Of a stretch of 43,119 nt of DNA, positions 464 through 33,481 are shown in pieces. A program made the position numbers and the translations under genes. Source of the stretch: a virus. The number at the start of each line of letters is the position of its first letter. The stretch's first letter is position 1. Under the pieces are notes generated by a model. The model saw nothing but the letters and a program-made list of their open reading frames with translations. It did not search any database and had not been told where the DNA came from. The DNA is taken from positions 1 through 43,119 of the IMG/VR virus record IMGVR_UViG_3300010287_000001. One strand, 5' to 3'.

Positions 464-598
464 GCCTCTGGTGCGGTCCGAGCGTTGTAGCTGGGAGCTT
501 TGTGGGGCAATACCCTATACTATCGCTGGATAAACGATGTTGATAATTCAAGACATTGGCCAAGCTCGGCAGGAAAACCGAGGTATCAACACATAATC

Positions 599-628
599 GC
601 CCTAAATAGCCCTAAATCGTCCTATATC
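599..628. repeat. Three helically phased 10-bp units (GCCCTAAATA / GCCCTAAATC / GTCCTATATC)
   Basis: Direct tandem units lying immediately upstream of an extended -10 element. Confidence 0.6.
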
Positions 629-633
629 GGGTT

Positions 634-642
634 TGGTATAAT
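634..642 (+). promoter_or_regulatory. Extended -10 promoter element TGGTATAAT for the 707-2656 operon
   Basis: TGn + TATAAT consensus lies 65 nt upstream of the first ATG. No good -35 is present. Confidence 0.4.
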
Positions 643-706
643 AAGCGATGTCGGTTATACTAAGAGTGTAATAAACGACGGCGGAAATACGAGGGAGGCG
701 GCCAGG

Positions 707-1051
707 ATGACATTCGAGACGATCTCAATCGACCGGATTAGACCCTTCCACGAGGTTCGAGACTCCGAGAAGCTCGCCGCTCTGATCGCCAGCATGACGG
801 AGCGAGGCTGGGACGGCAGACCGCTAGTAGTCATCGACTGCGGCGACTACTACCAAGCGATCACCGGCAGCCACAGATGGGCAGCGGCTAATGAGGTTGG
901 CCTCGACGAGATCCCGATCGCCATCTGCGAGACTGGCACCCTCTGGGAGGACTACGACATGATAATCGACGACATCAGGGACCCAGAGAATTTCGTAGAC
1001 ATCCTATCCGAGTATGACCCCGAAGCAGCCGAGCTGCTCAAGCAGAACTAG
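707..1051 (+). CDS. Small ParB/Srx-like N-terminal domain protein (114 aa)
   Basis: ATG at 707 is preceded by GAGGGAGG. The sequence ISIDRIRPFHEV...PLVVIDCGDYYQAITGSHRWAAANEVGLDEIP matches the ParB N-domain pattern. Confidence 0.65.
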   Translation: MTFETISIDRIRPFHEVRDSEKLAALIASMTERGWDGRPLVVIDCGDYYQAITGSHRWAAANEVGLDEIPIAICETGTLWEDYDMIIDDIRDPENFVDILSEYDPEAAELLKQN

Positions 1052-23308: not shown

Positions 23309-24955
23309 TCAGTACGTGTAGACTGGCAGTGACATCACATCGCCGTCTGTCTCCTGCAGCTCTCCATCGTGCGTGAGCGCATGGATCAGGGCGAAGAAAC
23401 CGTCAGTCTTTCTGGTATGAGGCTCAATCTTCTTGTAGGTCGTATTGCCCTTCGGATCTAGTTCCTGGTAGGTGTTGCCGACATACCAGCGCATGACCGG
23501 GTTATCACCGAACACGAATCGCTCCTCGGCGAAGCCCGACTCAATGATCGGCGCCACCCGGGCATGCGTGACAGGACCGCTAGGCACGTCTTTCAACGGT
23601 AGCCCCGCCTTCTGAAACTCATCACGCAGGAACTCCACCCGGTACCGGTCACTCAAGATGTTGATGATGTTGTACCGCTTGCCTTGCTCCACAAACCACT
23701 GCGCCACGTCCGCTGCCGTGATGCTGTCTCGATGGACAATCGTAAGCAGCCCCTGTTCGGCCCACTCTCGTATCGGGGCCTTGATTCTGCGCGACTCGAT
23801 CTTCAGTGCTTTGTGGCAGACGAAAGAGTGTTCCAGCCAGTAGCGTTTGCCTCGATACTTGAACAGCAGCCCGCAACTGGCGAAGTCGGTGACCTGCGCG
23901 TAGTCGATTGCCCCGATGCAGGGCATCCCCTCCAGCTCGTCGTAGGGGATCGGCTGATTGGTCGCCAGCACCTGTTCCCACGGTGCGACGACGGTGTACG
24001 CATCTTCCCGGGGCAGGTTCATCCTCTTGGTAAGGACGTCAATCGCCTTGTGCGGCTGGTGCTGCGCCTTTACAACATCCGCCTCGATCGCTTTGCGGAG
24101 CTCCGGGAAATACGGCAGCGACGGATTCGCTTTGACCCACATCCGCGGGTCCTTGAGTTCTTCCTCGTCATCGAGCTTGTAGATCAGTGGGAGCAGCCCG
24201 AGGTCTGTAATCTCGCCTGACAGCACCTTTTCGGCGAGTTCTTTGAGCTCGTCTAGGACACCGCCCCGCACGTAGCCGTCGGTTGTGATGTAGAACGTCC
24301 TTGAGTGCTTGCGCTTACCGAACCCGCTCTGGAACACCTTGATCGTGTCCCAGGTCTCATACTCATGGATCTCATCGAACACCAGGCAGGCTGACCGCTT
24401 GCCGTCCTTGGTCCGGGCGTTCGAGGTGTTAAACCTGATGTAGCTCTTGGTGCGGAGGTTCAGGATCAACTCTTTTGACCAGTAGAAGAACTTGCGGAGC
24501 TTCGATTTGTGCCGCTCAAGTACCTCGTGGTTATCGTTGAAGCTCGTCTTGGCCTGCTCTTCGTTGTTTGCGATGATGTCGATGTTGTAGCCCCTGATGC
24601 CGTGGTAGTGGGTGCTCAGGTAGAATACCAGCGCCGAGATGAACCCGTTCTTGCCGTTGCCTCGGCCCATCACAGTGAGGTACTCGTCAAACACCACGGT
24701 GTCGGTTGGCCGATGATAGGCATGGACCAGGGCCAAAATGAAAAGTTCCCAGTCCAGGAGCTTGAACTCATGATACTTCTCTATGACCCCGACGGCTTTG
24801 GCGATCCGCTCGCCGTCGATGTAGACACCGGGCTGGCTCAACTTGCGCTCAACGAGGTCGCAGGCCAACTTAATCTCCCGGCTTGCTGGGATTGCGCCTG
24901 ACCGGATGTCGTCGATATACCGGTCGATGTACGGATGATAGTCCCTCCTGCGCAT
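23309..24955 (-). CDS. terL: Terminase large subunit
   Basis: 548 aa with a Walker A-like MGRGNGKNGF, Walker B LVFDEIHE and a C-terminal nuclease region. Confidence 0.92.
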   Translation of the reverse strand: MRRRDYHPYIDRYIDDIRSGAIPASREIKLACDLVERKLSQPGVYIDGERIAKAVGVIEKYHEFKLLDWELFILALVHAYHRPTDTVVFDEYLTVMGRGNGKNGFISALVFYLSTHYHGIRGYNIDIIANNEEQAKTSFNDNHEVLERHKSKLRKFFYWSKELILNLRTKSYIRFNTSNARTKDGKRSACLVFDEIHEYETWDTIKVFQSGFGKRKHSRTFYITTDGYVRGGVLDELKELAEKVLSGEITDLGLLPLIYKLDDEEELKDPRMWVKANPSLPYFPELRKAIEADVVKAQHQPHKAIDVLTKRMNLPREDAYTVVAPWEQVLATNQPIPYDELEGMPCIGAIDYAQVTDFASCGLLFKYRGKRYWLEHSFVCHKALKIESRRIKAPIREWAEQGLLTIVHRDSITAADVAQWFVEQGKRYNIINILSDRYRVEFLRDEFQKAGLPLKDVPSGPVTHARVAPIIESGFAEERFVFGDNPVMRWYVGNTYQELDPKGNTTYKKIEPHTRKTDGFFALIHALTHDGELQETDGDVMSLPVYTY

Positions 24956-24991: not shown

Positions 24992-25339
24992 TCACATTTC
25001 ATCGTCATCAGACAGGTCATCCAAGCTGATGTCTCCCAGCTTAGTGATGATTTTCATGAGTGTGCTGGCAGTCCTATTGGCGCTGTCGGCGGTTTTGTTG
25101 TACGCGTTGATCGCCGGGTGGCTATACAGGTTTTGCCGCCCCTTGACATACTCCTTAGTAATGAGCAGGCCGCTTTCGTTTAGCTCTTTTTCGAGATCAG
25201 ACAGTATTTTGAGCTGAACTTGGTAGCGCTTGAACGTAGTCAAAAACAAGAAATTCTGCTCGACACCAATCTTTTGTGCCGCTTCAACGATCTTCTGCGC
25301 TTGTCTATTCAGATCGACTATCACCCGAGCTGTCGCCAC
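24992..25339 (-). CDS. terS: Terminase small subunit (P27-type)
   Basis: 115 aa helical protein directly upstream of TerL. GTG start with SD AAGGAGGG. Acidic C-terminus. Confidence 0.7.
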   Translation of the reverse strand: MATARVIVDLNRQAQKIVEAAQKIGVEQNFLFLTTFKRYQVQLKILSDLEKELNESGLLITKEYVKGRQNLYSHPAINAYNKTADSANRTASTLMKIITKLGDISLDDLSDDDEM

Positions 25340-26561
25340 AGATGGCCCTCCTTGCTATTGACTCGGCCAACTTCTTGGCCGCCGCCTTGTAGGGATAGTT
25401 GACCCGGTCATTTGGGCCCCAATTGCCGCCCTCGCGGAGTTGTTTCTCCGTCAGGCCCATTGCAGCAATGGCTTTGGCGAGCCGCGCCTTTGGCTGCTGC
25501 GGTGACATCAGTTTGACACGGTTGCTCCAACCAATGCCGCCAAAAAACCACTCCTTAAACGTCAAGAAGTTCTCCCAGTAGTCATCTCGAAGCGGCATGA
25601 TTGCCAGCGGCGTCGCCGGATCCGGGCACCATGCGGTAAAGCTGAGTGCCAGGACGCCTTTTGGTGTTATCTCCTTCCATCTCGTCACCGCGGCCTTGAG
25701 CTCTTCCCAATCGTCCGCCGTCTCCCCTGGCAGACCAGCGATCAAGAACCAGCGGACACTCCTACCATTGGCATTGAGCCATGCGGTGCACTTTACTAGA
25801 TCATCATGACTGATCGGTTTGTTGACCAGGTTCCTAAGTCGCTCAGACACACCCTCGATACCCAGTCTGACCTGTCTGGCTGGCGGCAGGCCATACTCTC
25901 TGAGATACTTTACCGAGTAGCTGCCGTGCTCCGCTGGTGGCAGTCGCTTAAAGAACGAGTGCTGTGCAAGATCGTTGCTCAGATAGTTGACCTTTTGTCC
26001 AGCGGCTCGCAGCCGTCTGATCTGCGTTAACAGTCTTTCCGGGTCCGGATTTTCTGCGTAGGTATGTGCCCAGCCAGTCTGGCAAAACGCACATTTGTTC
26101 TTGCAGCCTCGCCCGCACCATACCCGCACCGCTCCATCCTCGGCCATAATGGGAGGGCAGTCCCACGGAAACCCCTGATCGATCTCCACTGGTCTCGTCT
26201 CCCCGTGCACCCATGCATTTGGCAGCGCTCTTGCCGCCTCCAACCCCTCATGGATCAGGATCCGCATAAATATCTGCCCGTCGCCCACGCATACAACGTC
26301 GCCGTGGAGCCCGAGAGAGTATGGGCTTGTGCTTCCCGCGCCTCCGACGACGATCGCCTTGTGCGGGTACTTGGTCTTGATTCGCCTGACATAGTCGCAG
26401 TCGATAGGCGACGTGCAGGTAATCAGTATAGCATCAGCCTCGGCCGGCGGGTATTCTCGAGTGCCGTTCCTGCGCAACTCCCAGGCCAGATACTCGGCAG
26501 CCATGCCTCTCCCGGCCTGTTTGTGGACCGGAAAACACGCATCAAGAATAGCGAAGCGCAT
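25305..26561 (-). CDS. Radical SAM protein with an N-terminal B12-binding-like Rossmann domain (418 aa)
   Basis: CGRGCKNKCAFCQ contains CxxxCxxC. GIEGVSERLRNLVNKPIS is present. The N-terminus ILITCTSPIDCDYVRRIKTKYPHKAIVVGGAG resembles the cobalamin-binding domain of class B rSAM enzymes. Confidence 0.85.
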   Translation of the reverse strand: MRFAILDACFPVHKQAGRGMAAEYLAWELRRNGTREYPPAEADAILITCTSPIDCDYVRRIKTKYPHKAIVVGGAGSTSPYSLGLHGDVVCVGDGQIFMRILIHEGLEAARALPNAWVHGETRPVEIDQGFPWDCPPIMAEDGAVRVWCGRGCKNKCAFCQTGWAHTYAENPDPERLLTQIRRLRAAGQKVNYLSNDLAQHSFFKRLPPAEHGSYSVKYLREYGLPPARQVRLGIEGVSERLRNLVNKPISHDDLVKCTAWLNANGRSVRWFLIAGLPGETADDWEELKAAVTRWKEITPKGVLALSFTAWCPDPATPLAIMPLRDDYWENFLTFKEWFFGGIGWSNRVKLMSPQQPKARLAKAIAAMGLTEKQLREGGNWGPNDRVNYPYKAAAKKLAESIARRAICGDSSGDSRSE

Positions 26562-27132
26562 TGCGTATTACCTCCGAGACCCACTCCGATACGTTTGCGT
26601 CTGGTGCGCGGTTTAAAAAATCCTCATATACGCTCCGGTCCACCTTGCAGGCAATGGCACCAAAGCTGAAGAGCACACCATCATCGCCCTCGTCGCCCAT
26701 GCGTTCCCAAGGGGAGGCACCGGCTCTGTCAGCATCCTCTTCGTGGTCGATGAAGAGGTCATCAAAACCAAACGGTGACATGTCAAAGTCGAGAGTCTCT
26801 AATTCCTCCAGCTCTAGCGTCAGCAACTCATAATCCCACGTTGAGAGCTCGGCGGTCTTATTGTCTGCCAGCCGAAATGCTTTGATCTGCGCTTCGGTCA
26901 GATCATCAGCAACGATGCACGGGACCTTGGTCATACCTAGTTGTTTGGCGGCCTTGAGTCGGGTATGGCCTGCAATTATCCCGCCTTTGCCGTCGATGAT
27001 AATCGGCACGCGAAAGCCGAACTCCTTGATGCTCGCGGCCACGGCATCAACAGCAGCATCGTTATGCCTTGGGTTGCGCTCATATGGTGTCAGCTCGCTG
27101 ATGTCCTTATAGACGATCTTGAGGACCGCCAT
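26542..27132 (-). CDS. ParB/Srx-like N-terminal domain protein
   Basis: ISELTPYERNPRHNDAAVDAVAASIKEFGFRVPIIID..GGIIAGHTRLKAAKQLG fits the ParB N-domain. The stop overlaps the rSAM start by 20 nt. Confidence 0.8.
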   Translation of the reverse strand: MAVLKIVYKDISELTPYERNPRHNDAAVDAVAASIKEFGFRVPIIIDGKGGIIAGHTRLKAAKQLGMTKVPCIVADDLTEAQIKAFRLADNKTAELSTWDYELLTLELEELETLDFDMSPFGFDDLFIDHEEDADRAGASPWERMGDEGDDGVLFSFGAIACKVDRSVYEDFLNRAPDANVSEWVSEVIRNALRYS

Positions 27133-27247
27133 GCCCAACCCCTCCAAAAAACCTCATGGTTGTGCGATTCCCCGTTTTGGATGGCCCGCCCCGCCGGTCC
27201 CCCGTCGCCCGCGGAAACTCGTTTTCTCGACCGGGGGTCTACCAGCG

Positions 27248-27565
27248 CTACCAGCGCTCGGGAAAGATTCTCGTCTTCGCGTTCTCACTCGGTTCGATGA
27301 ACTTCTCGGGATGCTCACGGTTGTGGCAGTCAGCGCACAGACTCTCCAGGTTGTCGTTGTCGAGTGCGAGGTCGGGTCGCTGGCCGAGGTGCTTGACGTG
27401 GTGCACTGTGTTCGCCGGAGCGAATCGTCCTTCCCGCTTGCACCGCTGGCACTCGTGGTTGTCTCGCTCGAGGATCTCTCGCCGCTTGCGCTCCCACTCG
27501 CCGGAGTGGTAGAACCTGTCTCGCTCGACGAGCTTCCTGATCCTCACCAGCAGCCGCTCATCCAT
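27248..27565 (-). CDS. HNH endonuclease (terminase-associated type)
   Basis: CQRC...VHHVKH...NLESLCADCHNREH motif, in the packaging operon. Confidence 0.9.
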   Translation of the reverse strand: MDERLLVRIRKLVERDRFYHSGEWERKRREILERDNHECQRCKREGRFAPANTVHHVKHLGQRPDLALDNDNLESLCADCHNREHPEKFIEPSENAKTRIFPERW

Positions 27566-28907: not shown

Positions 28908-29328
28908 GCGATCCCCCCAGCAGCTCGGGGTTGTCGTGAATGTTACCAATGACTTCAACCCTGGGGAATCGGTCACGAAGGACGATCCACAGGACATCTT
29001 CCGCCCAGCGAGTCGCATTGAACAGTCTCACTTGCCATTCGCCTGACCCATTCCTACACACTCGTCCGGTCCAATACGATGTGTCAGACTCCCAAGCCCG
29101 CAGTATGTCGTCCTCATAGATGTCGCAACTGTTTGTATCCTGAAACCCAGTCCACCGGCCGACGGTTTCTTGATCAACGAGCCACGCCGACGGTTTGCTG
29201 CCAATCAGCCAGGGGCTAGCAATATAGACTTGACCATCGCGATCAAGTAGATAACCGCCATAAGCCCATTTGTCGTTGTCAATCCGCTTGCCGCGGAATC
29301 TAATCCGCCTGCCACATAATATTTTCAC
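28900..29328 (-). CDS. YopX-family protein
   Basis: FRGKRIDNDKWAYGGYL...GNIHDNPELL is the YopX signature. Confidence 0.8.
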   Translation of the reverse strand: MKILCGRRIRFRGKRIDNDKWAYGGYLLDRDGQVYIASPWLIGSKPSAWLVDQETVGRWTGFQDTNSCDIYEDDILRAWESDTSYWTGRVCRNGSGEWQVRLFNATRWAEDVLWIVLRDRFPRVEVIGNIHDNPELLGGSHE

Positions 29329-29489
29329 TCTCGCACCTCCTCAGAACAGCGTCGCTCCTCCAGGTCCCTCTCCATCTGCCTGTCTGCGTCGCCCGCGACC
29401 ACGCACAGGCTTAGGATCATCACCCCGAACGTCCCGCCCAGCACGAACGCTATTATCACCGCCGCCCAGAACACGGACCAACTCAGCAT
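29325..29489 (-). CDS. Small single-pass membrane protein (54 aa), not in the ORF track
   Basis: MLSWSVFWAAVIIAFVLGGTFGVMILSLCVVAGDADRQMERDLEERRCSEEVRE. SD GAGGAG. The stop overlaps the YopX GTG (GTGA). Confidence 0.5.
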   Translation of the reverse strand: MLSWSVFWAAVIIAFVLGGTFGVMILSLCVVAGDADRQMERDLEERRCSEEVRE

Positions 29490-29569
29490 CAGGATCAACT
29501 CCTCTCTGTTTCAGCCAACTCTCGGTCGCCATTCTCCGCTTGCCCTGCTCATCCTCAAACTCGAAGAGT

Positions 29570-29767
29570 CTAAAAACCCCTGATATCGGGCCGCACTCGC
29601 GAATGATTTTCACGCCAACAGCTCCCCTCGTATGCACTCACAAGCCCGTCCCGCACCGCATCCATAGCTTGCTTCACAGCCTTGCCTCCCGCTCGCCCCT
29701 CGCGCCGCATCAGACCGAGGAGCCACACCAATGCCCGCATTTGGTCTGTCCAGGGACGCTCTGACAT
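29570..29767 (-). CDS. Hypothetical protein (65 aa)
   Basis: The ATG overlaps the methyltransferase stop (TAATG). Confidence 0.45.
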   Translation of the reverse strand: MSERPWTDQMRALVWLLGLMRREGRAGGKAVKQAMDAVRDGLVSAYEGSCWRENHSRVRPDIRGF

Positions 29768-30438
29768 TACGGCCTCACCTTCTGGAACACCAGAATCCAT
29801 TCCGCCGACACTCTCACATCGCTATTAGCCCCGAACCTGAGTCGAGGTGTCTCCACAGGTATCTTGTCGATCAACAACAACCCAATGCCCGTAATAGCCT
29901 TCACATGCCAATCAACGACCCGCACTACCTGCCCCTTGCGTATATGGTCAGACACGTTCACAATCATCAGTCCGTCCGGCCTCAACACCCGCTCGCACTC
30001 CATCCAAATACGTGTGTGCTTTTGTCGATACTCCTCTCCCCACTGCATCATGCCGGTATTGCCGGATGTGAGCGGGCGGCCAAGGGTGTGTCTGTAGGTG
30101 TTCCGCCTGCTTCCGTCACGGGCGTTGTGATGGTCTGCCATTCTGTTGCCATACGTCGGTGACGTGCAGATTGCACAAAACTGCCCGTCCAAGGCCCAGT
30201 CCATGTGTTCCGCATCCCCAATATGCACTTCGTCTACACCGGGAGGAGTAGGTGTGATCCACTCCGGCTCCAGCTCGTTACACACAACGTAACCCTTATA
30301 CCCATGTTCCTTGATCTGTCCGATCTTCCCCGTGCCCGCCATTGGGTCAAGCACATTCGGGCAGTCTCGGAGGAGATCAACGAAGATTGGTATCAGTGTG
30401 TCCGTATATTTGGCTGGGTGTTTGACTGATGTCACCAT
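29767..30438 (-). CDS. DNA methyltransferase (N6-A / N4-C type)
   Basis: Motif I-like LDPMAGTGK and motif IV-like TSPTYGN. 223 aa. Confidence 0.65.
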   Translation of the reverse strand: MVTSVKHPAKYTDTLIPIFVDLLRDCPNVLDPMAGTGKIGQIKEHGYKGYVVCNELEPEWITPTPPGVDEVHIGDAEHMDWALDGQFCAICTSPTYGNRMADHHNARDGSRRNTYRHTLGRPLTSGNTGMMQWGEEYRQKHTRIWMECERVLRPDGLMIVNVSDHIRKGQVVRVVDWHVKAITGIGLLLIDKIPVETPRLRFGANSDVRVSAEWILVFQKVRP

Positions 30439-32095: not shown

Positions 32096-32188
32096 TTATC
32101 CCCTCCAGATACCCTCCACAATCGCCCACACCATAGCCGCCAGCATCGCAGCGGTCAGGACACGGATTAGCACGTCGAAGATTTTCAT
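32096..32188 (-). CDS. Tiny hydrophobic peptide (30 aa), not in the ORF track
   Basis: MKIFDVLIRVLTAAMLAAMVWAIVEGIWRG. ATGA overlap with the DUF5131 stop. Its own stop lies 1 nt before the next ATG. SD GGAGGT. Confidence 0.4.
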   Translation of the reverse strand: MKIFDVLIRVLTAAMLAAMVWAIVEGIWRG

Positions 32189-33078
32189 GGGGATACCTCC
32201 GGTCTCTGATCCCATATCTGCCCATCGAGGAGACGGCCTGCGGCTTTTTTGCCGACGCGCACCATCAGGGCCTCACCGGGTTTTCTAAACCCCATCATAT
32301 GGCCTACCTGTGCATATACGCTGGTTCCATCCATACCCAAGCAAAGTTCTCGCTTTCTTCCGTTGTCAGAACTCCAAGGTCGACAAGCCCACTCGCCCCA
32401 GCTTTTAAAAAAGAACGGCACACCTGCCGATTGGCATTGGTCTCGGAGACTTCGCACCCAATCAGGATGCATGGGCCGGGCATCAGGACCAGTTTCGCCG
32501 CCGCAGATTACCCAGTCAAGCCCCGGCAACCCCTTCGCAAGCCCTAATTTCACTGGTTCCAGCATAGGCTCGACTGACACAAACCGCATCGCTGCAGGGA
32601 TCTTCAAAAGGTGTAGGATGCGCTTAACAGCGTCCTGATTTTCGACGGTGACACCCAGCCCGAGGTTGGGCAGATAGTCACCGCCACCAAGGACACGTGC
32701 TCCTTTACCGCCATACAGCTTGTCCTCGATGTTTTCCGGCCGCTTTGTCAGCATCAAGAATGTGTGCTGTGGGCAAGCAGCAATGATTTCTAGCACATTG
32801 TCGATGAAGTCGGTGGGAACATTGCTGTGGAATATATCTCCCATGCTGCACACGAATACCGTGCGTGGTTTGCGCCAGCGCAACGGCTCCTCCAACCTCT
32901 CCGGCCAGCATGACACCCGAAACCCCTCGTATCGCTCTCGATGTGGCACTGCGGGGTTCTGCGATAGTCGATGGGCTATGCGCCTTGCATAACAGTTGCG
33001 GCAGCCCTCGCTGACCGGTGTGCAGCCGGTAACGGGGTTCCAGGAGTAATCAGTCCACTGTATCGAGGTCTTGCCCAC
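32185..33078 (-). CDS. Phage Gp37/Gp68-family protein (DUF5131) with a three-Cys motif
   Basis: TSIQWTDYSWNPVTGCTPVSEGCRNCYA...FVCSMGDIF. GTG 33078 lies 7 nt after SD AGGAGGTG, so the ORF-track N-terminal extension is rejected. Confidence 0.8.
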   Translation of the reverse strand: MGKTSIQWTDYSWNPVTGCTPVSEGCRNCYARRIAHRLSQNPAVPHRERYEGFRVSCWPERLEEPLRWRKPRTVFVCSMGDIFHSNVPTDFIDNVLEIIAACPQHTFLMLTKRPENIEDKLYGGKGARVLGGGDYLPNLGLGVTVENQDAVKRILHLLKIPAAMRFVSVEPMLEPVKLGLAKGLPGLDWVICGGETGPDARPMHPDWVRSLRDQCQSAGVPFFFKSWGEWACRPWSSDNGRKRELCLGMDGTSVYAQVGHMMGFRKPGEALMVRVGKKAAGRLLDGQIWDQRPEVSP

Positions 33079-33481
33079 GCCCTTGCACCTCCTCTCTGTC
33101 AAGCGCCTCGCGGAAACACTCTCCGCACGCACGCTCGGGGCAACGACTACCCAGCATCCTGGGAGGACAGCAGCTGTCGTCAAGCCAGCGCAAGATGGTC
33201 TCCTCCCGCCTCCGCAGCCTCTCGACCTCAGCCTCCGCCTTCAGAGCACGCTCGATGGCATGAGGCCAGCCCTCACGGGCTTCGGCGATAAAGTGCATGT
33301 TCTCGGTGGGCCTGTTCTCACCACGCGGACATGGATCGCCTGCGATACATATGCACCCCATCGACTCTACCTGATAGACCTCCATGCCGTCTGGACCGCA
33401 CGTCTCGGGAAGTGCGATCCACGGCCCCGGCGTCGCCTTCTTACATAGTTCTAAGTCTCTTAGCAGGTCACGCATGGTCAT
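33050..33481 (-). CDS. Ead/Ea22-like protein (ATPGPW motif)
   Basis: MTMRDLLRDLELCKKATPGPW, followed by a coiled-coil-like and Cys-rich C-terminus. Confidence 0.55.
   Translation of the reverse strand: MTMRDLLRDLELCKKATPGPWIALPETCGPDGMEVYQVESMGCICIAGDPCPRGENRPTENMHFIAEAREGWPHAIERALKAEAEVERLRRREETILRWLDDSCCPPRMLGSRCPERACGECFREALDREEVQGRGQDLDTVD

What the first reader, a model, noticed from the sequence alone, without database searches (positions are those of the whole stretch)
25305..27132. Translationally coupled ParB-domain protein + B12-type radical SAM enzyme in the late/packaging operon
Seen in sequence:
- A 196-aa ParB/Srx N-domain protein (..GGIIAGHTRLKAAKQLG..) ends 20 nt inside the start of a 418-aa protein.
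- That protein has a Rossmann-like N-domain, a CKNKCAFC (CxxxCxxC) cluster motif and a GIEGVSERLRNL segment, i.e. a class-B-like radical SAM enzyme.
- Both sit between the HNH endonuclease and TerS, downstream of the RinA-like activator.

Established knowledge: in many phages this slot holds a ParB domain fused or adjacent to a DNA methyltransferase or a PAPS-reductase-like enzyme (IbrA/IbrB-type pairs). There the ParB domain is thought to be the DNA-targeting partner.

Inference: a radical SAM enzyme has replaced the usual transferase. This suggests a radical-chemistry modification of phage DNA, or of a packaging substrate, that I do not recognise as a described system. The same genome also encodes a DUF5131 three-Cys protein, a conventional methyltransferase and dNTP-hydrolase-like proteins.
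Basis: partly seen in the sequence, partly recalled or inferred. Interest (0 to 1): 0.72.

Follow-up and report, generated by a model that had tools for sequence, protein, structure and literature searches.

The report
Phage ParB-coupled radical SAM enzyme cassette
A prophage carries, just ahead of its DNA-packaging genes, a small ParB-like protein translationally coupled to an unannotated radical SAM enzyme, and this pairing is near-universal across a large virus-only enzyme superfamily that occupies the slot where related phages keep DNA-modifying enzymes, so it probably installs an undescribed DNA modification.

Summary
On the minus strand, a 196-aa ParB_N protein (26542-27132) overlaps by 20 nt a 418-aa radical SAM (rSAM) enzyme (25305-26561). 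That enzyme in turn overlaps TerS by 35 nt, between HNH and TerL.

The rSAM has one CxxxCxxC cluster and an N-terminal Rossmann-like domain. Its closest folds are class-I B12 rSAMs (MgmA/QCMT, TsrM, TokK, OxsB), but also MiaB/RimO and the cobalamin-free AprD4. Cobalamin use is therefore undecided.

The rSAM belongs to an unnamed, essentially viral superfamily. It has no PHROG or curated NCBIfam match and is absent from about 50,700 deposited phage genomes. In 72 of 76 de-replicated loci a ParB domain lies immediately upstream, ahead of four unrelated terminase families.

The ParB C-terminal tail co-varies with the rSAM (rho 0.70), whereas the N-domain is shuffled (rho 0.27). The same N-domain pairs elsewhere with DNA methyltransferases or a TET-associated glycosyltransferase in the same slot.

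Best reading (about 0.5): a two-component, post-replicative DNA-modifying enzyme. Substrate and chemistry remain unproven.

The parts
26542..27132 (-). ParB/Srx-type partner protein, 196 aa (ATG 27132; stop 26542-26544)
   Evidence: ORF. Pfam ParB_N 31.7 bits, above the cutoff. phrog_620 E 1e-57 and phrog_498 (ParB-MTase) E 1e-47. Nearest solved sequences are the CTP-binding N-domains of Spo0J/ParB and Noc.
27141..27145 (-). Shine-Dalgarno GGAGG, 8 nt upstream of the ParB ATG
   Evidence: Read directly from the sequence.
26731..27132 (-). ParB N-domain plus helical linker (aa 1-134). Retains box I 'NPR', box II 'GHTR' (in place of GERR) and the box III Asn. No HTH.
   Evidence: Alignments. Only ParB_N is found by Pfam at E<=0.1. 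This module is exchangeable between cassettes.
26545..26730 (-). ParB C-terminal tail (aa 135-196): acidic linker, 'AGASPWERM', the 'DGVLFSFGAI' strand with an invariant Gly, then an amphipathic helix. This is the rSAM-specific module.
   Evidence: Conserved in 17 of 18 core-family loci. Analogous tails occur in all tiers. Its divergence tracks the rSAM with rho 0.70. Median pI 4.4.
26542..26561 (-). 20-nt overlap between the ParB stop and the rSAM start (translational coupling)
   Evidence: Overlaps of 20, 4, 16, 25 or 26 nt are seen in 20 of 21 related loci examined.
26571..26575 (-). Shine-Dalgarno GGAGG, 9 nt upstream of the rSAM ATG, inside the ParB coding sequence
   Evidence: Junction sequence.
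25305..26561 (-). Radical SAM enzyme, 418 aa, founding member of an unnamed viral superfamily
   Evidence: Pfam PF04055 56.9 bits. No PHROG match. NCBIfam hits are all sub-threshold. More than 237 homologues, all unnamed. 100 clusters at 50% identity score E<=1e-30. Model pLDDT 95.9.
26217..26561 (-). rSAM N-terminal Rossmann-like domain (aa 1-115), comparable to the cobalamin-binding domain of class-I B12 rSAMs
   Evidence: Secondary structure of the model. Pfam B12-binding reaches only 15.1 bits. Fold matches to MgmA/QCMT, TsrM, TokK and OxsB, but also to AprD4 and MiaB.
26082..26105 (-). CxxxCxxC motif (C153, C157, C160) that ligates the radical SAM [4Fe-4S] cluster. These are the only invariant cysteines.
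   Evidence: Invariant columns in alignments A1 and A2.
25308..25631 (-). rSAM C-terminal helical domain (aa 311-418), basic, with conserved FxEWFF..GWSNR and GG.WGPN.R..YP motifs. No TRAM domain.
   Evidence: Median pI 9.4 across the family.
24992..25339 (-). Context: probable small terminase subunit. Its GTG start, preceded by AAGGAGGG, overlaps the rSAM 3' end by 35 nt.
   Evidence: (Terminase_4, E 3e-4, sub-threshold). A 99% identical copy lies next to TerL in L025.
23309..24955 (-). Context: large terminase subunit
   Evidence: TerL_ATPase and TerL_nuclease hits.
27248..27565 (-). Context: HNH endonuclease upstream of ParB
   Evidence: Pfam HNH E 7e-13. HNH is also upstream of the pair in L006, L009 and L021.

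Best explanation
The two genes form a self-contained, two-subunit enzyme module expressed with the late (packaging) genes.

Proposed mechanism. The basic rSAM enzyme cleaves SAM at its single [4Fe-4S] cluster to generate a 5'-deoxyadenosyl radical. It uses that radical to modify replicated phage DNA before or during packaging. The most likely reaction is a carbon methylation or similar radical substitution, possibly through cobalamin held in its Rossmann-like domain. The modification would protect progeny DNA from host restriction. The small acidic ParB/Srx-type protein docks on the rSAM through its subfamily-specific C-terminal tail. It then supplies a nucleotide-dependent gating or DNA-access function, as the ParB-like ATPase DpdB does for the DNA transglycosylase DpdA.

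Shown here:
- the gene anatomy and translational coupling;
- rSAM superfamily membership and fold;
- near-obligate ParB linkage across a deep, virus-restricted superfamily;
- tail-rSAM co-variation with N-domain shuffling;
- the same ParB N-domain paired with bona fide or predicted DNA-modifying enzymes in the same genomic slot.

Inferred:
- physical complex formation;
- DNA as the substrate;
- the type of chemistry;
- cobalamin use;
- an anti-restriction role.
For: 1. Anatomy: 20-nt and 35-nt overlaps, Shine-Dalgarno motifs at each start, and no terminator from HNH to TerL.
2. rSAM identity: PF04055 above cutoff, with C153/C157/C160 the only invariant Cys. The model has pLDDT 95.9. Best folds are MgmA/QCMT (E 2e-14), MiaB, MtaB, TsrM, AprD4, RimO, TokK and OxsB.
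3. Virus-restricted: only 4 true members among 185,579 species-representative genomes, the one on a long contig lying in a prophage region. There are 25 core loci and over 100 outer-tier loci in IMG/VR.
4. ParB is immediately upstream on the same strand in 72 of 76 de-replicated loci, across tiers only 22-30% identical. One of the four exceptions has a weak (sub-threshold) GmrSD_N/DUF262-like hit, a domain also of the ParB superfamily.
5. The pair sits ahead of four unrelated terminase families or a portal, and nothing else co-travels.
6. Tail-versus-rSAM identity gives rho 0.70, against 0.27 for the N-domain. Clear shuffling cases exist.
7. The charges are complementary: tail about -7, rSAM about +9.
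8. The same N-domain is fused to, or directly followed by, DNA methyltransferases and a TAGT glycosyltransferase in the same slot.
9. The cassette decays as a unit in L038.
10. Precedents: DpdB/DpdA (PMC12839542) and rSAM gp53 of phage M6 acting on DNA (PMC8989533).
Against: - There is no direct evidence that DNA is the substrate.
- The nearest solved relatives act on proteins (MgmA, RimO), tRNA (MiaB, MtaB) or small molecules (TsrM, TokK, OxsB, AprD4), at TM about 0.5-0.57 and 13-18% identity.
- The ParB partner lacks any HTH and is acidic, so it does not look like a DNA-binding subunit.
- The B12-binding domain is sub-threshold by Pfam, and cobalamin-free look-alikes exist.
- No cultured or deposited phage carries any tier of the family, so no chemical data exist.
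- The conserved tail could instead be the enzyme's substrate.
- An inter-protein interface was not modelled.
Confidence: 0.5

Rival explanations
1. The rSAM modifies the ParB partner itself. The conserved C-terminal tail (strand with invariant Gly, SPW motif) would be a fused substrate or recognition peptide, analogous to MgmA acting on methyl-coenzyme M reductase or RimO on ribosomal protein S12. The modified ParB would then be the functional product.
For: - The closest folds include the protein-modifying rSAMs MgmA/QCMT and RimO.
- The tail is the best-conserved part of the partner and co-varies with the rSAM.
- Translational coupling would deliver enzyme and substrate together.
Against: - Apart from one Gly flanked by hydrophobic residues, no tail residue is invariant across tiers. 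The SPW motif becomes TTY in some core members.
- No RiPP-recognition or peptide-binding domain was detected in the rSAM.
- The tail does not match the glycyl-radical motif (sequence inspection).
- This reading does not explain why the same ParB N-domain partners with DNA methyltransferases and a glycosyltransferase in the same slot.
Confidence: 0.13
2. The pair acts on a free nucleotide or small molecule. ParB/Srx would bind an NTP in its retained pocket and the rSAM would transform it. The product could be a modified (d)NTP for incorporation, or a molecule that blocks a host defence or signalling pathway.
For: - ParB pocket motifs (NPR, GxxR, Asn) are conserved across partners.
- ParB/Srx members are NTPases or phosphotransferases (PMC10853773, PMC12839542).
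- Several fold neighbours act on small molecules (TsrM, OxsB, TokK, AprD4).
Against: - Late-operon placement next to the terminase fits a post-replicative role better than precursor synthesis.
- No dedicated polymerase or nucleotide-pathway genes co-travel.
- The rSAM's consistently basic surface suggests a polyanionic substrate.
- The analogous cassettes carry DNA-acting enzymes.
Confidence: 0.12
3. The rSAM modifies RNA (for example host or phage tRNA, as MiaB and MtaB do), or it has a direct role in packaging such as assisting terminase or pac-site recognition. DNA base modification would not be its function.
For: - MiaB and MtaB are among the top fold matches.
- The gene is embedded between HNH and TerS and overlaps TerS.
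Against: - The methylthiotransferase hallmarks are absent. There is no auxiliary-cluster cysteine triad and no TRAM domain.
- The pair occurs with four unrelated terminase families and sometimes next to a portal instead, so it is not tied to one packaging machine.
- A ParB-type partner is unexplained for tRNA modification.
Confidence: 0.08
4. The adjacency is incidental: two unrelated accessory genes that both happen to prefer the slot before the terminase, or an inactive remnant.
For: ParB-type genes and miscellaneous accessory genes are common at this position in temperate phages.
Against: - ParB linkage is found in 72 of 76 loci retrieved with rSAM-only patterns, with conserved stop/start overlaps, a partner-specific tail and joint decay in L038.
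- The catalytic motifs are invariant.
- Only about 0.6% of deposited phages have this ParB at all.
Confidence: 0.02

Closest known systems
Phage ParB-domain / DNA-methyltransferase fusions and two-gene ParB + MTase cassettes (phrog_498; PADLOC MTase_II PDLC03229; Streptococcus Javan prophage 'DNA modification methylases')
   Same: - Homologous ParB N-domain (E 1e-47 and 7e-31; up to 60-75% identity to stand-alone versions).
- Same position at the boundary of the regulatory and packaging modules.
- Same tight coupling to a downstream SAM-using enzyme.
   Different: - The catalytic partner is a radical SAM enzyme with a [4Fe-4S] cluster, not a Rossmann-fold N6/N4 methyltransferase.
- The ParB carries a distinct C-terminal tail specific to the rSAM.
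- The two kinds of cassette can coexist side by side (L006, L020).
ParB + TET-associated glycosyltransferase (TAGT, PF20691) pair of Lactobacillus phage phi jlb1
   Same: A stand-alone ParB (43% identical N-domain) overlaps the downstream enzyme gene, directly upstream of TerS/TerL.
   Different: The partner is a predicted DNA-base glycosyltransferase, and the ParB tail is unrelated to the GASPWERM module.
DpdA/DpdB of the Dpd 7-deazaguanine DNA-modification system
   Same: A ParB-like NTPase is required alongside a DNA-modifying enzyme (as summarised in PMC12839542). It is the best mechanistic analogy for a non-HTH ParB partner.
   Different: DpdA is a tRNA-guanine-transglycosylase homologue, and the system is cellular and linked to restriction. 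No TGT, preQ0 pathway or restriction genes accompany the pair here.
Class-I cobalamin-dependent radical SAM enzymes (QCMT/MgmA 9CCB, TsrM, TokK, OxsB)
   Same: Same three-part architecture: N-terminal Rossmann-like domain, rSAM barrel and C-terminal domain. Similar size to MgmA. Best PDB hits by sequence (E 2e-8) and by fold (E 2e-14, TM 0.57).
   Different: - Only 13-18% identity.
- Below every curated NCBIfam and Pfam B12 threshold.
- The known members act on proteins or small molecules, none on DNA, and none has a ParB partner.
- Cobalamin binding is untested.
Phage M6 gp53, the rSAM isomerase of thymidine hypermodification (PMC8989533)
   Same: A phage-encoded rSAM enzyme acting post-replicatively on DNA. 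Its authors describe it as the first rSAM shown to install a DNA modification.
   Different: - gp53 is spore-photoproduct-lyase-like, without an N-terminal Rossmann domain.
- It needs a multi-gene 5-hmdU/kinase/aGPT-Pplase pathway.
- The present enzyme is a different rSAM lineage in a two-gene cassette, with no such genes among the window ORFs scanned.
MiaB/MtaB/RimO methylthiotransferases
   Same: N-terminal flavodoxin-like domain plus rSAM core, shared 'GxEGxS...R' and 'GxPGET' motifs, fold E about 1e-9 to 1e-10.
   Different: No auxiliary-cluster cysteines and no TRAM domain.

Membership tests
Radical SAM superfamily (PF04055) | CxxxCxxC motif that ligates a [4Fe-4S] cluster | tested here: met
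   C153-x3-C157-x2-C160 is invariant in 82 aligned homologues.
Radical SAM superfamily (PF04055) | Profile match above the curated threshold, and a partial TIM-barrel fold | tested here: met
   56.9 bits against a cutoff of 29.5. AlphaFold model pLDDT 95.9, with 41 PDB matches at E<=1e-3, the listed ones nearly all rSAM enzymes.
Class B (cobalamin-dependent) radical SAM enzymes | Rossmann-like domain N-terminal to the rSAM core (class-I arrangement) | tested here: met
   The model has a beta-alpha N-domain over aa 1-115. Top folds are QCMT/MgmA, TsrM, TokK and OxsB.
Class B (cobalamin-dependent) radical SAM enzymes | B12-binding domain, or a curated B12-rSAM family profile, above threshold | tested here: not met
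   PF02310 scores 15.1 bits against 32.1. TIGR04013, TIGR04014, TIGR03960 and others are all far below their cutoffs.
Class B (cobalamin-dependent) radical SAM enzymes | Actual cobalamin binding and use | not testable with these tools
   No universal sequence motif exists. Look-alikes such as AprD4 do not bind cobalamin (PMC12931638).
MiaB/RimO/MtaB methylthiotransferases | Three conserved Cys in the N-terminal domain for an auxiliary [4Fe-4S] cluster | tested here: not met
   The only invariant cysteines are C153, C157 and C160. The N-domain cysteines are variable.
MiaB/RimO/MtaB methylthiotransferases | C-terminal TRAM domain | tested here: not met
   No TRAM hit in Pfam. The C-terminal domain of the model is helical.
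ParB/Srx superfamily (partner protein) | ParB_N profile above threshold, with nucleotide-pocket motifs | tested here: met
   31.7 bits against 26.3. It aligns to the Spo0J/Noc CTP-binding domains. NPR, GxxR and Asn are conserved, although GERR is replaced by GHTR.
Canonical partition ParB (ParABS) | Central HTH parS-binding domain, C-terminal dimerisation domain and a ParA partner | tested here: not met
   The protein is 196 aa with ParB_N as its only domain. TIGR00180 scores 41 bits against a 58 cutoff. No ParA was found among the window ORFs scanned.
Phage ParB-partnered DNA-modification cassettes (ParB-MTase, ParB+TAGT) | Homologous ParB N-domain tightly coupled to an enzyme gene at the head of the packaging module | tested here: met
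Phage ParB-partnered DNA-modification cassettes (ParB-MTase, ParB+TAGT) | The partner enzyme demonstrably acts on DNA | not testable with these tools
   The substrate of this rSAM family is unknown. There is no cultured phage and no annotation.
Thymidine-hypermodification rSAM (M6 gp53 type) | SPL-like rSAM fold, with neighbouring 5-hmdU kinase, aGPT-Pplase and PLP enzyme genes | tested here: not met
   Spore photoproduct lyase is absent from the 50 best PDB matches. None of those families was found in the window ORFs scanned, and none co-travels.
IbrA/IbrB-type pairs | ParB-like IbrB next to a PAPS-reductase-like IbrA | tested here: not met
   The partner is PF04055, not a PAPS reductase. No PAPS-reductase partner was seen in any of the neighbourhoods examined.

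The most novel reading that the evidence does not exclude
This is the founding example of a widespread, virus-only class of two-component DNA-modifying enzymes. In it, a class-B-like radical SAM enzyme, gated by a ParB/Srx nucleotide-binding partner, installs a chemically new post-replicative mark on phage DNA. The mark could be methylation of an unactivated or sp2 carbon of a base, sugar or backbone. It would be the first rSAM of this lineage acting directly on DNA, and an undescribed anti-restriction modification.
Probability: 0.35. Interest if true: 0.9.

Novelty: new variant of a known kind. Interest (0 to 1): 0.75.

Why it matters
Known phage DNA modifications come from methyltransferases, glycosyltransferases, transglycosylases and multi-step hypermodification pathways. 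Only one rSAM enzyme (M6 gp53) has been shown to install a DNA modification, and it belongs to a different lineage and pathway.

This work defines a large rSAM superfamily with these properties:
- it is unannotated (no PHROG, no curated NCBIfam model);
- it is restricted to viruses;
- it is almost always coupled to a ParB-type protein;
- it occupies the slot used for DNA-modifying enzymes.

If the substrate is DNA, three things follow. It would reveal new nucleic-acid chemistry. It would give a new route by which phages of anaerobes evade restriction. It could also provide tools for site- or genome-wide radical DNA alkylation.

It would also clarify what the very common phage ParB N-domain does when attached to modification enzymes. 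The data suggest an exchangeable nucleotide-binding module joined to partner-specific tails. The system is compact, two genes of about 1.8 kb, so it can be tested directly by heterologous expression.

Tried and rejected
1. Named homologues of the rSAM. PHROGs gave none. NCBIfam gave only sub-threshold B12-rSAM and MTTase hits. PADLOC gave none.
2. Deposited phages. tblastn of the rSAM and of two outer-tier representatives against 50,697 genomes gave one weak partial hit and nothing else, so no cultured model exists.
3. Natural ParB-rSAM fusions. None appeared among the 150 best representatives.
4. Searching the ParB tail alone in the 5.8-billion-protein database. The word index handles a 64-aa query poorly. 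It returned only four short proteins, but it did reveal the decayed cassette L038.
5. Linkage to DUF5131, the N6_N4 methyltransferase, YopX, RecT and other window genes. None co-travels with the pair.
6. vir335 (a virus of Methanomassiliicoccales). Its ParB lies next to an rSAM, but that rSAM is on the opposite strand and is unrelated (no hit to the family HMM at E<=10). I treated it as a separate curiosity.
7. Glycyl-radical-site reading of the invariant Gly in the tail. Rejected because the tail does not fit the RVxG[FWY] fingerprint and the enzyme is not of the PFL-activase type (established knowledge).
8. Viperin-like CTP chemistry, suggested by ParB's CTP link. Rejected because no viperin appears among the fold matches and the architecture differs.
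9. Complex prediction with a linker-fused, paired ParB+rSAM alignment. I prepared it but did not submit it.
10. A model of ParB alone. Not run, because only two admissible sequences carry the tail.
11. Literature. Seven searches and seven papers looked up (six of them held) yielded no ParB-rSAM description. Maindola et al. 2014 (ParB/Srx survey) is not held.
12. Promoter and terminator scan. The counts are not above shuffled expectation, so it supports the operon reading only weakly.


Full report
**1. Observation.** All genes in this part of the window are on the minus strand.
- The ParB ORF runs from ATG 27132 to the stop at 26542-26544 (196 aa). It contains GGIIAGHTRLKAAKQLG and passes the Pfam ParB_N threshold (31.7 bits against 26.3). 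A GGAGG motif 8 nt upstream favours this ATG over the TTG at 27147.
- The rSAM ORF (25305-26561, 418 aa) contains CKNKCAFC and GIEGVSERLRNL and passes Pfam Radical_SAM (56.9 bits against 29.5).
- The ParB stop lies 20 nt inside the rSAM ORF, whose ATG has its own GGAGG motif 9 nt upstream.
- The rSAM 3' end overlaps by 35 nt a 115-aa probable TerS, which starts at a GTG preceded by AAGGAGGG. TerL, portal, protease and capsid genes follow. HNH and a sigma-70-region-4/activator-like protein lie upstream.
- No terminator-like site lies between HNH and TerL, although the scan is not above background.
- The window as a whole is a complete temperate siphovirus-type prophage with integrase, CI/Cro-like repressors, RecT, replication genes, a late module and a lysozyme.

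**2. The enzyme.** Three cysteines (C153, C157, C160) are the only invariant cysteines in 82 homologues. There is therefore one [4Fe-4S] site and no auxiliary cluster.
- The Pfam B12-binding hit is sub-threshold (15.1 bits against 32.1).
- NCBIfam gives only far-sub-threshold hits to B12-rSAM and methylthiotransferase families.
- PHROGs and PADLOC give nothing.
- An AlphaFold model built on 82 sequences is very confident (pLDDT 95.9, pTM 0.92). It shows an N-terminal Rossmann-like domain, the rSAM barrel and a helical C-terminal domain.
- Its best PDB matches are MgmA/QCMT (9CCB, E 2e-14, TM 0.57), then MiaB, MtaB, TsrM, AprD4, RimO, TokK and OxsB, all at 13-18% identity.
- According to a 2026 review, QCMT, TsrM, TokK and OxsB form class I of the B12-dependent rSAM enzymes, while AprD4 sits in the same sequence space yet binds no cobalamin (PMC12931638).

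'Class-B-like' is a fair description of the architecture. Cobalamin dependence cannot be decided here. The methylthiotransferase hallmarks (auxiliary-cluster cysteines, TRAM domain) are absent.

**3. The family is viral, deep and unannotated.**
- The 5.8-billion-protein search found more than 237 full-length homologues of 400-424 aa. None has a real name.
- The exhaustive profile search found 100 clusters at 50% identity with E<=1e-30 and 1,393 with E<=1e-10. They fall into a core family and two further tiers, and none is a ParB fusion.
- Only 4 true members occur in 185,579 species-representative genomes. The one on a long contig (L001/L030) lies in a prophage region; the other three are 2.5-4.4 kb MAG contigs.
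- IMG/VR viral contigs yielded 25 core loci and more than 100 outer-tier loci.
- None of about 50,700 deposited phage genomes carries any tier.

**4. ParB linkage.** The loci were retrieved with rSAM-derived patterns only, so ParB presence is not an ascertainment artefact.
- After de-replication at 90% identity there are 84 rSAM clusters, of which 76 have enough upstream sequence.
- 72 of those 76 have a ParB N-domain immediately upstream on the same strand: core 18/18, core-like 15/15, tier 2 5/7, tier 3 34/36.
- Of the four exceptions, one (L122) has a weak, sub-threshold GmrSD_N/DUF262-like hit upstream, a domain that also belongs to the ParB superfamily. Two (L048, L050) are preceded by ORFs with weak RAMP-like hits.
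- The stop/start overlap is conserved: 20 nt in 12 and 4 nt in 5 of 21 related core loci examined, with the ParB stop embedded in the rSAM's conserved 'ILD' codons.
- L038 shows joint decay, with a truncated ParB followed by an 88-aa rSAM remnant in front of a terminase.
- For comparison, only 306 of 50,697 deposited phages have this ParB type at all.

**5. Position and autonomy.** Downstream of the pair lie terminases of four unrelated Pfam families (TerL_ATPase/nuclease, Terminase_6, Terminase_3, GpA) or a portal. No other window gene travels with the pair. DUF5131 appears only in L004, and the N6_N4 methyltransferase, YopX, RecT and the rest do not appear at all. The pair is a self-contained two-gene module that moves between otherwise unrelated phages and always lands at the head of the packaging module.

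**6. Anatomy of the partner.** The ParB protein has an N-domain of about 134 aa. It aligns to the CTP-binding domains of Spo0J/ParB and Noc and retains box I (NPR), a reduced box II (GHTR in place of GERR) and the box III Asn. It has no HTH.
- Residues 135-196 form a tail: an acidic linker, AGASPWERM, a hydrophobic strand with an invariant Gly (DGVLFSFGAI) and an amphipathic helix.
- This tail is present in 17 of 18 core loci and lies outside the generic phage ParB profile.
- Every tier has a tail of the same design but different sequence.
- Across 30 pairs, tail identity tracks rSAM identity (Spearman 0.70) far better than N-domain identity does (0.27).
- There are clear shuffling cases. L120 and L054 have N-domains 71% identical, tails 18% and rSAMs 40%.
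- The window's N-domain is 65-75% identical to stand-alone ParBs that lack this tail. One relative (P0292) combines a 66%-identical N-domain with a tier-3-type tail.
- The partner is acidic (N-domain median pI 5.05; tail pI 4.4, charge about -7). The rSAM is basic (median pI 9.0, charge about +9, concentrated in the core and C-terminal domains).

These data point to the tail as the rSAM-specific contact element, and to the rSAM, not ParB, as the likely polyanion binder.

**7. What the same ParB module does elsewhere.**
- Its closest relatives in annotated phages are the N-termini of 'DNA modification methylases' (phrog_498 E 1e-47; PADLOC MTase_II E 7e-31).
- The nearest stand-alone versions are followed directly by N6/N4 methyltransferases (L155, which also has a SAM synthetase; L157), or by a ParB-methyltransferase fusion ahead of the terminase (L156).
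- In Lactobacillus phage phi jlb1, a ParB with a 43%-identical N-domain and a different tail overlaps a TET-associated glycosyltransferase (PF20691, E 1e-32) directly upstream of TerS/TerL.
- In L006 and L020, a ParB-N6/N4-methyltransferase fusion lies beside the ParB-rSAM pair.

The rSAM therefore occupies the enzyme position of a recurrent 'ParB plus DNA-modifying enzyme' cassette. It coexists with methyltransferases and does not replace them.

**8. Mechanism.** My best-supported reading (about 0.5) is a two-subunit, late-expressed enzyme that modifies replicated phage DNA by radical chemistry.
- The ParB partner would dock via its tail and contribute a nucleotide-dependent gating or DNA-access step, by analogy with DpdB and DpdA (PMC12839542).
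- A phage rSAM acting on DNA has precedent in M6 gp53. That enzyme is SPL-like and embedded in a multi-gene 5-hmdU pathway that is absent here (PMC8989533).
- Complex formation, DNA as the substrate, methyl transfer, cobalamin use and an anti-restriction role are all inferences.
- Rivals: the tail is the substrate, giving protein modification as in MgmA or RimO (0.13); nucleotide or small-molecule chemistry (0.12); an RNA or packaging role (0.08); incidental adjacency (0.02).
- The main evidence against the best reading is that the nearest solved relatives act on proteins, tRNA or small molecules, and that no chemical data exist.

**9. Comparison with the literature and novelty.** Full-text searches found no description of a ParB-rSAM pair. 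The comparative-genomic papers on Dnd and BREX discuss ParB-superfamily partners (DndB, DpdB, GmrSD) but not this one.

I classify the finding as a new variant of a known kind: ParB-partnered phage nucleic-acid-modification cassettes with an unprecedented catalytic partner. If the chemistry proves to be on DNA, it would amount to a new class of DNA modification.

**10. Verdict.** It is right about the slot, the linkage and the novelty. It is wrong or unproven on replacement, on ParB as the targeting subunit and on links to DUF5131. Interest 0.75.

Noticed in passing
window 500-1051 (+): A second ParB_N-domain protein (183 aa, Pfam 33.2 bits) is encoded near the left end of the window, on the opposite strand from the late genes and far from the cassette. 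Its relation to the prophage or the host flank is unknown.
   Followed up: no
window 32185-33183 (-): A strong DUF5131 protein (311.8 bits) lies in the replication region.
   Followed up: partly
L041 4001-5576 (Lactobacillus phage phi jlb1, KF767351.1): The annotated 'hypothetical protein' jlb1_025 is a TET-associated glycosyltransferase (PF20691, E 1e-32). It is translationally coupled to a ParB and sits just upstream of TerS/TerL. This cultured phage may therefore carry glycosylated DNA bases.
   Followed up: partly
L040 6001-7843 (Caudoviricetes sp. vir335, host Methanomassiliicoccales, BK063680.1): An archaeal virus has a ParB (40% identical N-domain, no GASPWERM tail) lying convergent to, and overlapping, a 436-aa rSAM (phrog_9298, CFRGCDFC motif, no Pfam hit). 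That rSAM is unrelated to the family studied here. It may be an independent ParB-rSAM association.
   Followed up: partly
L155 4001-6037 (Roseburia sp. MAG prophage): ParB is followed by an N6/N4 DNA methyltransferase and then a phage-encoded S-adenosylmethionine synthetase fragment (PF00438). This suggests some cassettes bring their own SAM supply.
   Followed up: no
L048 2384-3992 and L050 2339-3995: In two tier-2 loci the rSAM is preceded not by ParB but by two ORFs, one of which gives weak sub-threshold RAMP-superfamily hits (E 5e-4 and 4e-3).
   Followed up: partly
L122 3316-3981: The ORF upstream of this tier-3 rSAM gives a weak GmrSD_N (DUF262) hit (E 1.4e-3, 19.2 bits against a cutoff of 33.2). 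That domain is a ParB-superfamily NTPase domain, so this 'exception' may be a divergent ParB-type partner.
   Followed up: partly
L038 2482-3089: A decayed cassette: a truncated ParB that keeps the GASPWERM tail, followed by an 88-aa remnant of the rSAM N-terminus, directly before a TerS-like gene and TerL.
   Followed up: yes
L027 5980-7306: The rSAM of this 37-kb viral contig is split over two reading frames. This is either a frameshift (pseudogene) or an assembly error. ParB is still upstream.
   Followed up: no
L032 2165-2464, L033 1733-2122, L063 4080-4472, L112 7766-8176: Several loci carry a second ParB-like ORF downstream of the rSAM, so the enzyme is flanked by ParB-type genes on both sides.
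   Followed up: no
L001 1726-2400: The Eubacteriales prophage with the cassette also encodes a second, small (224-aa) protein with a faint Radical_SAM hit, about 4 kb upstream of the pair.
   Followed up: no
window 29001-30000: The strongest local GC skew in the window (-0.33) falls on the stretch of small ORFs between the YopX-like gene and the N6_N4 methyltransferase.
   Followed up: no
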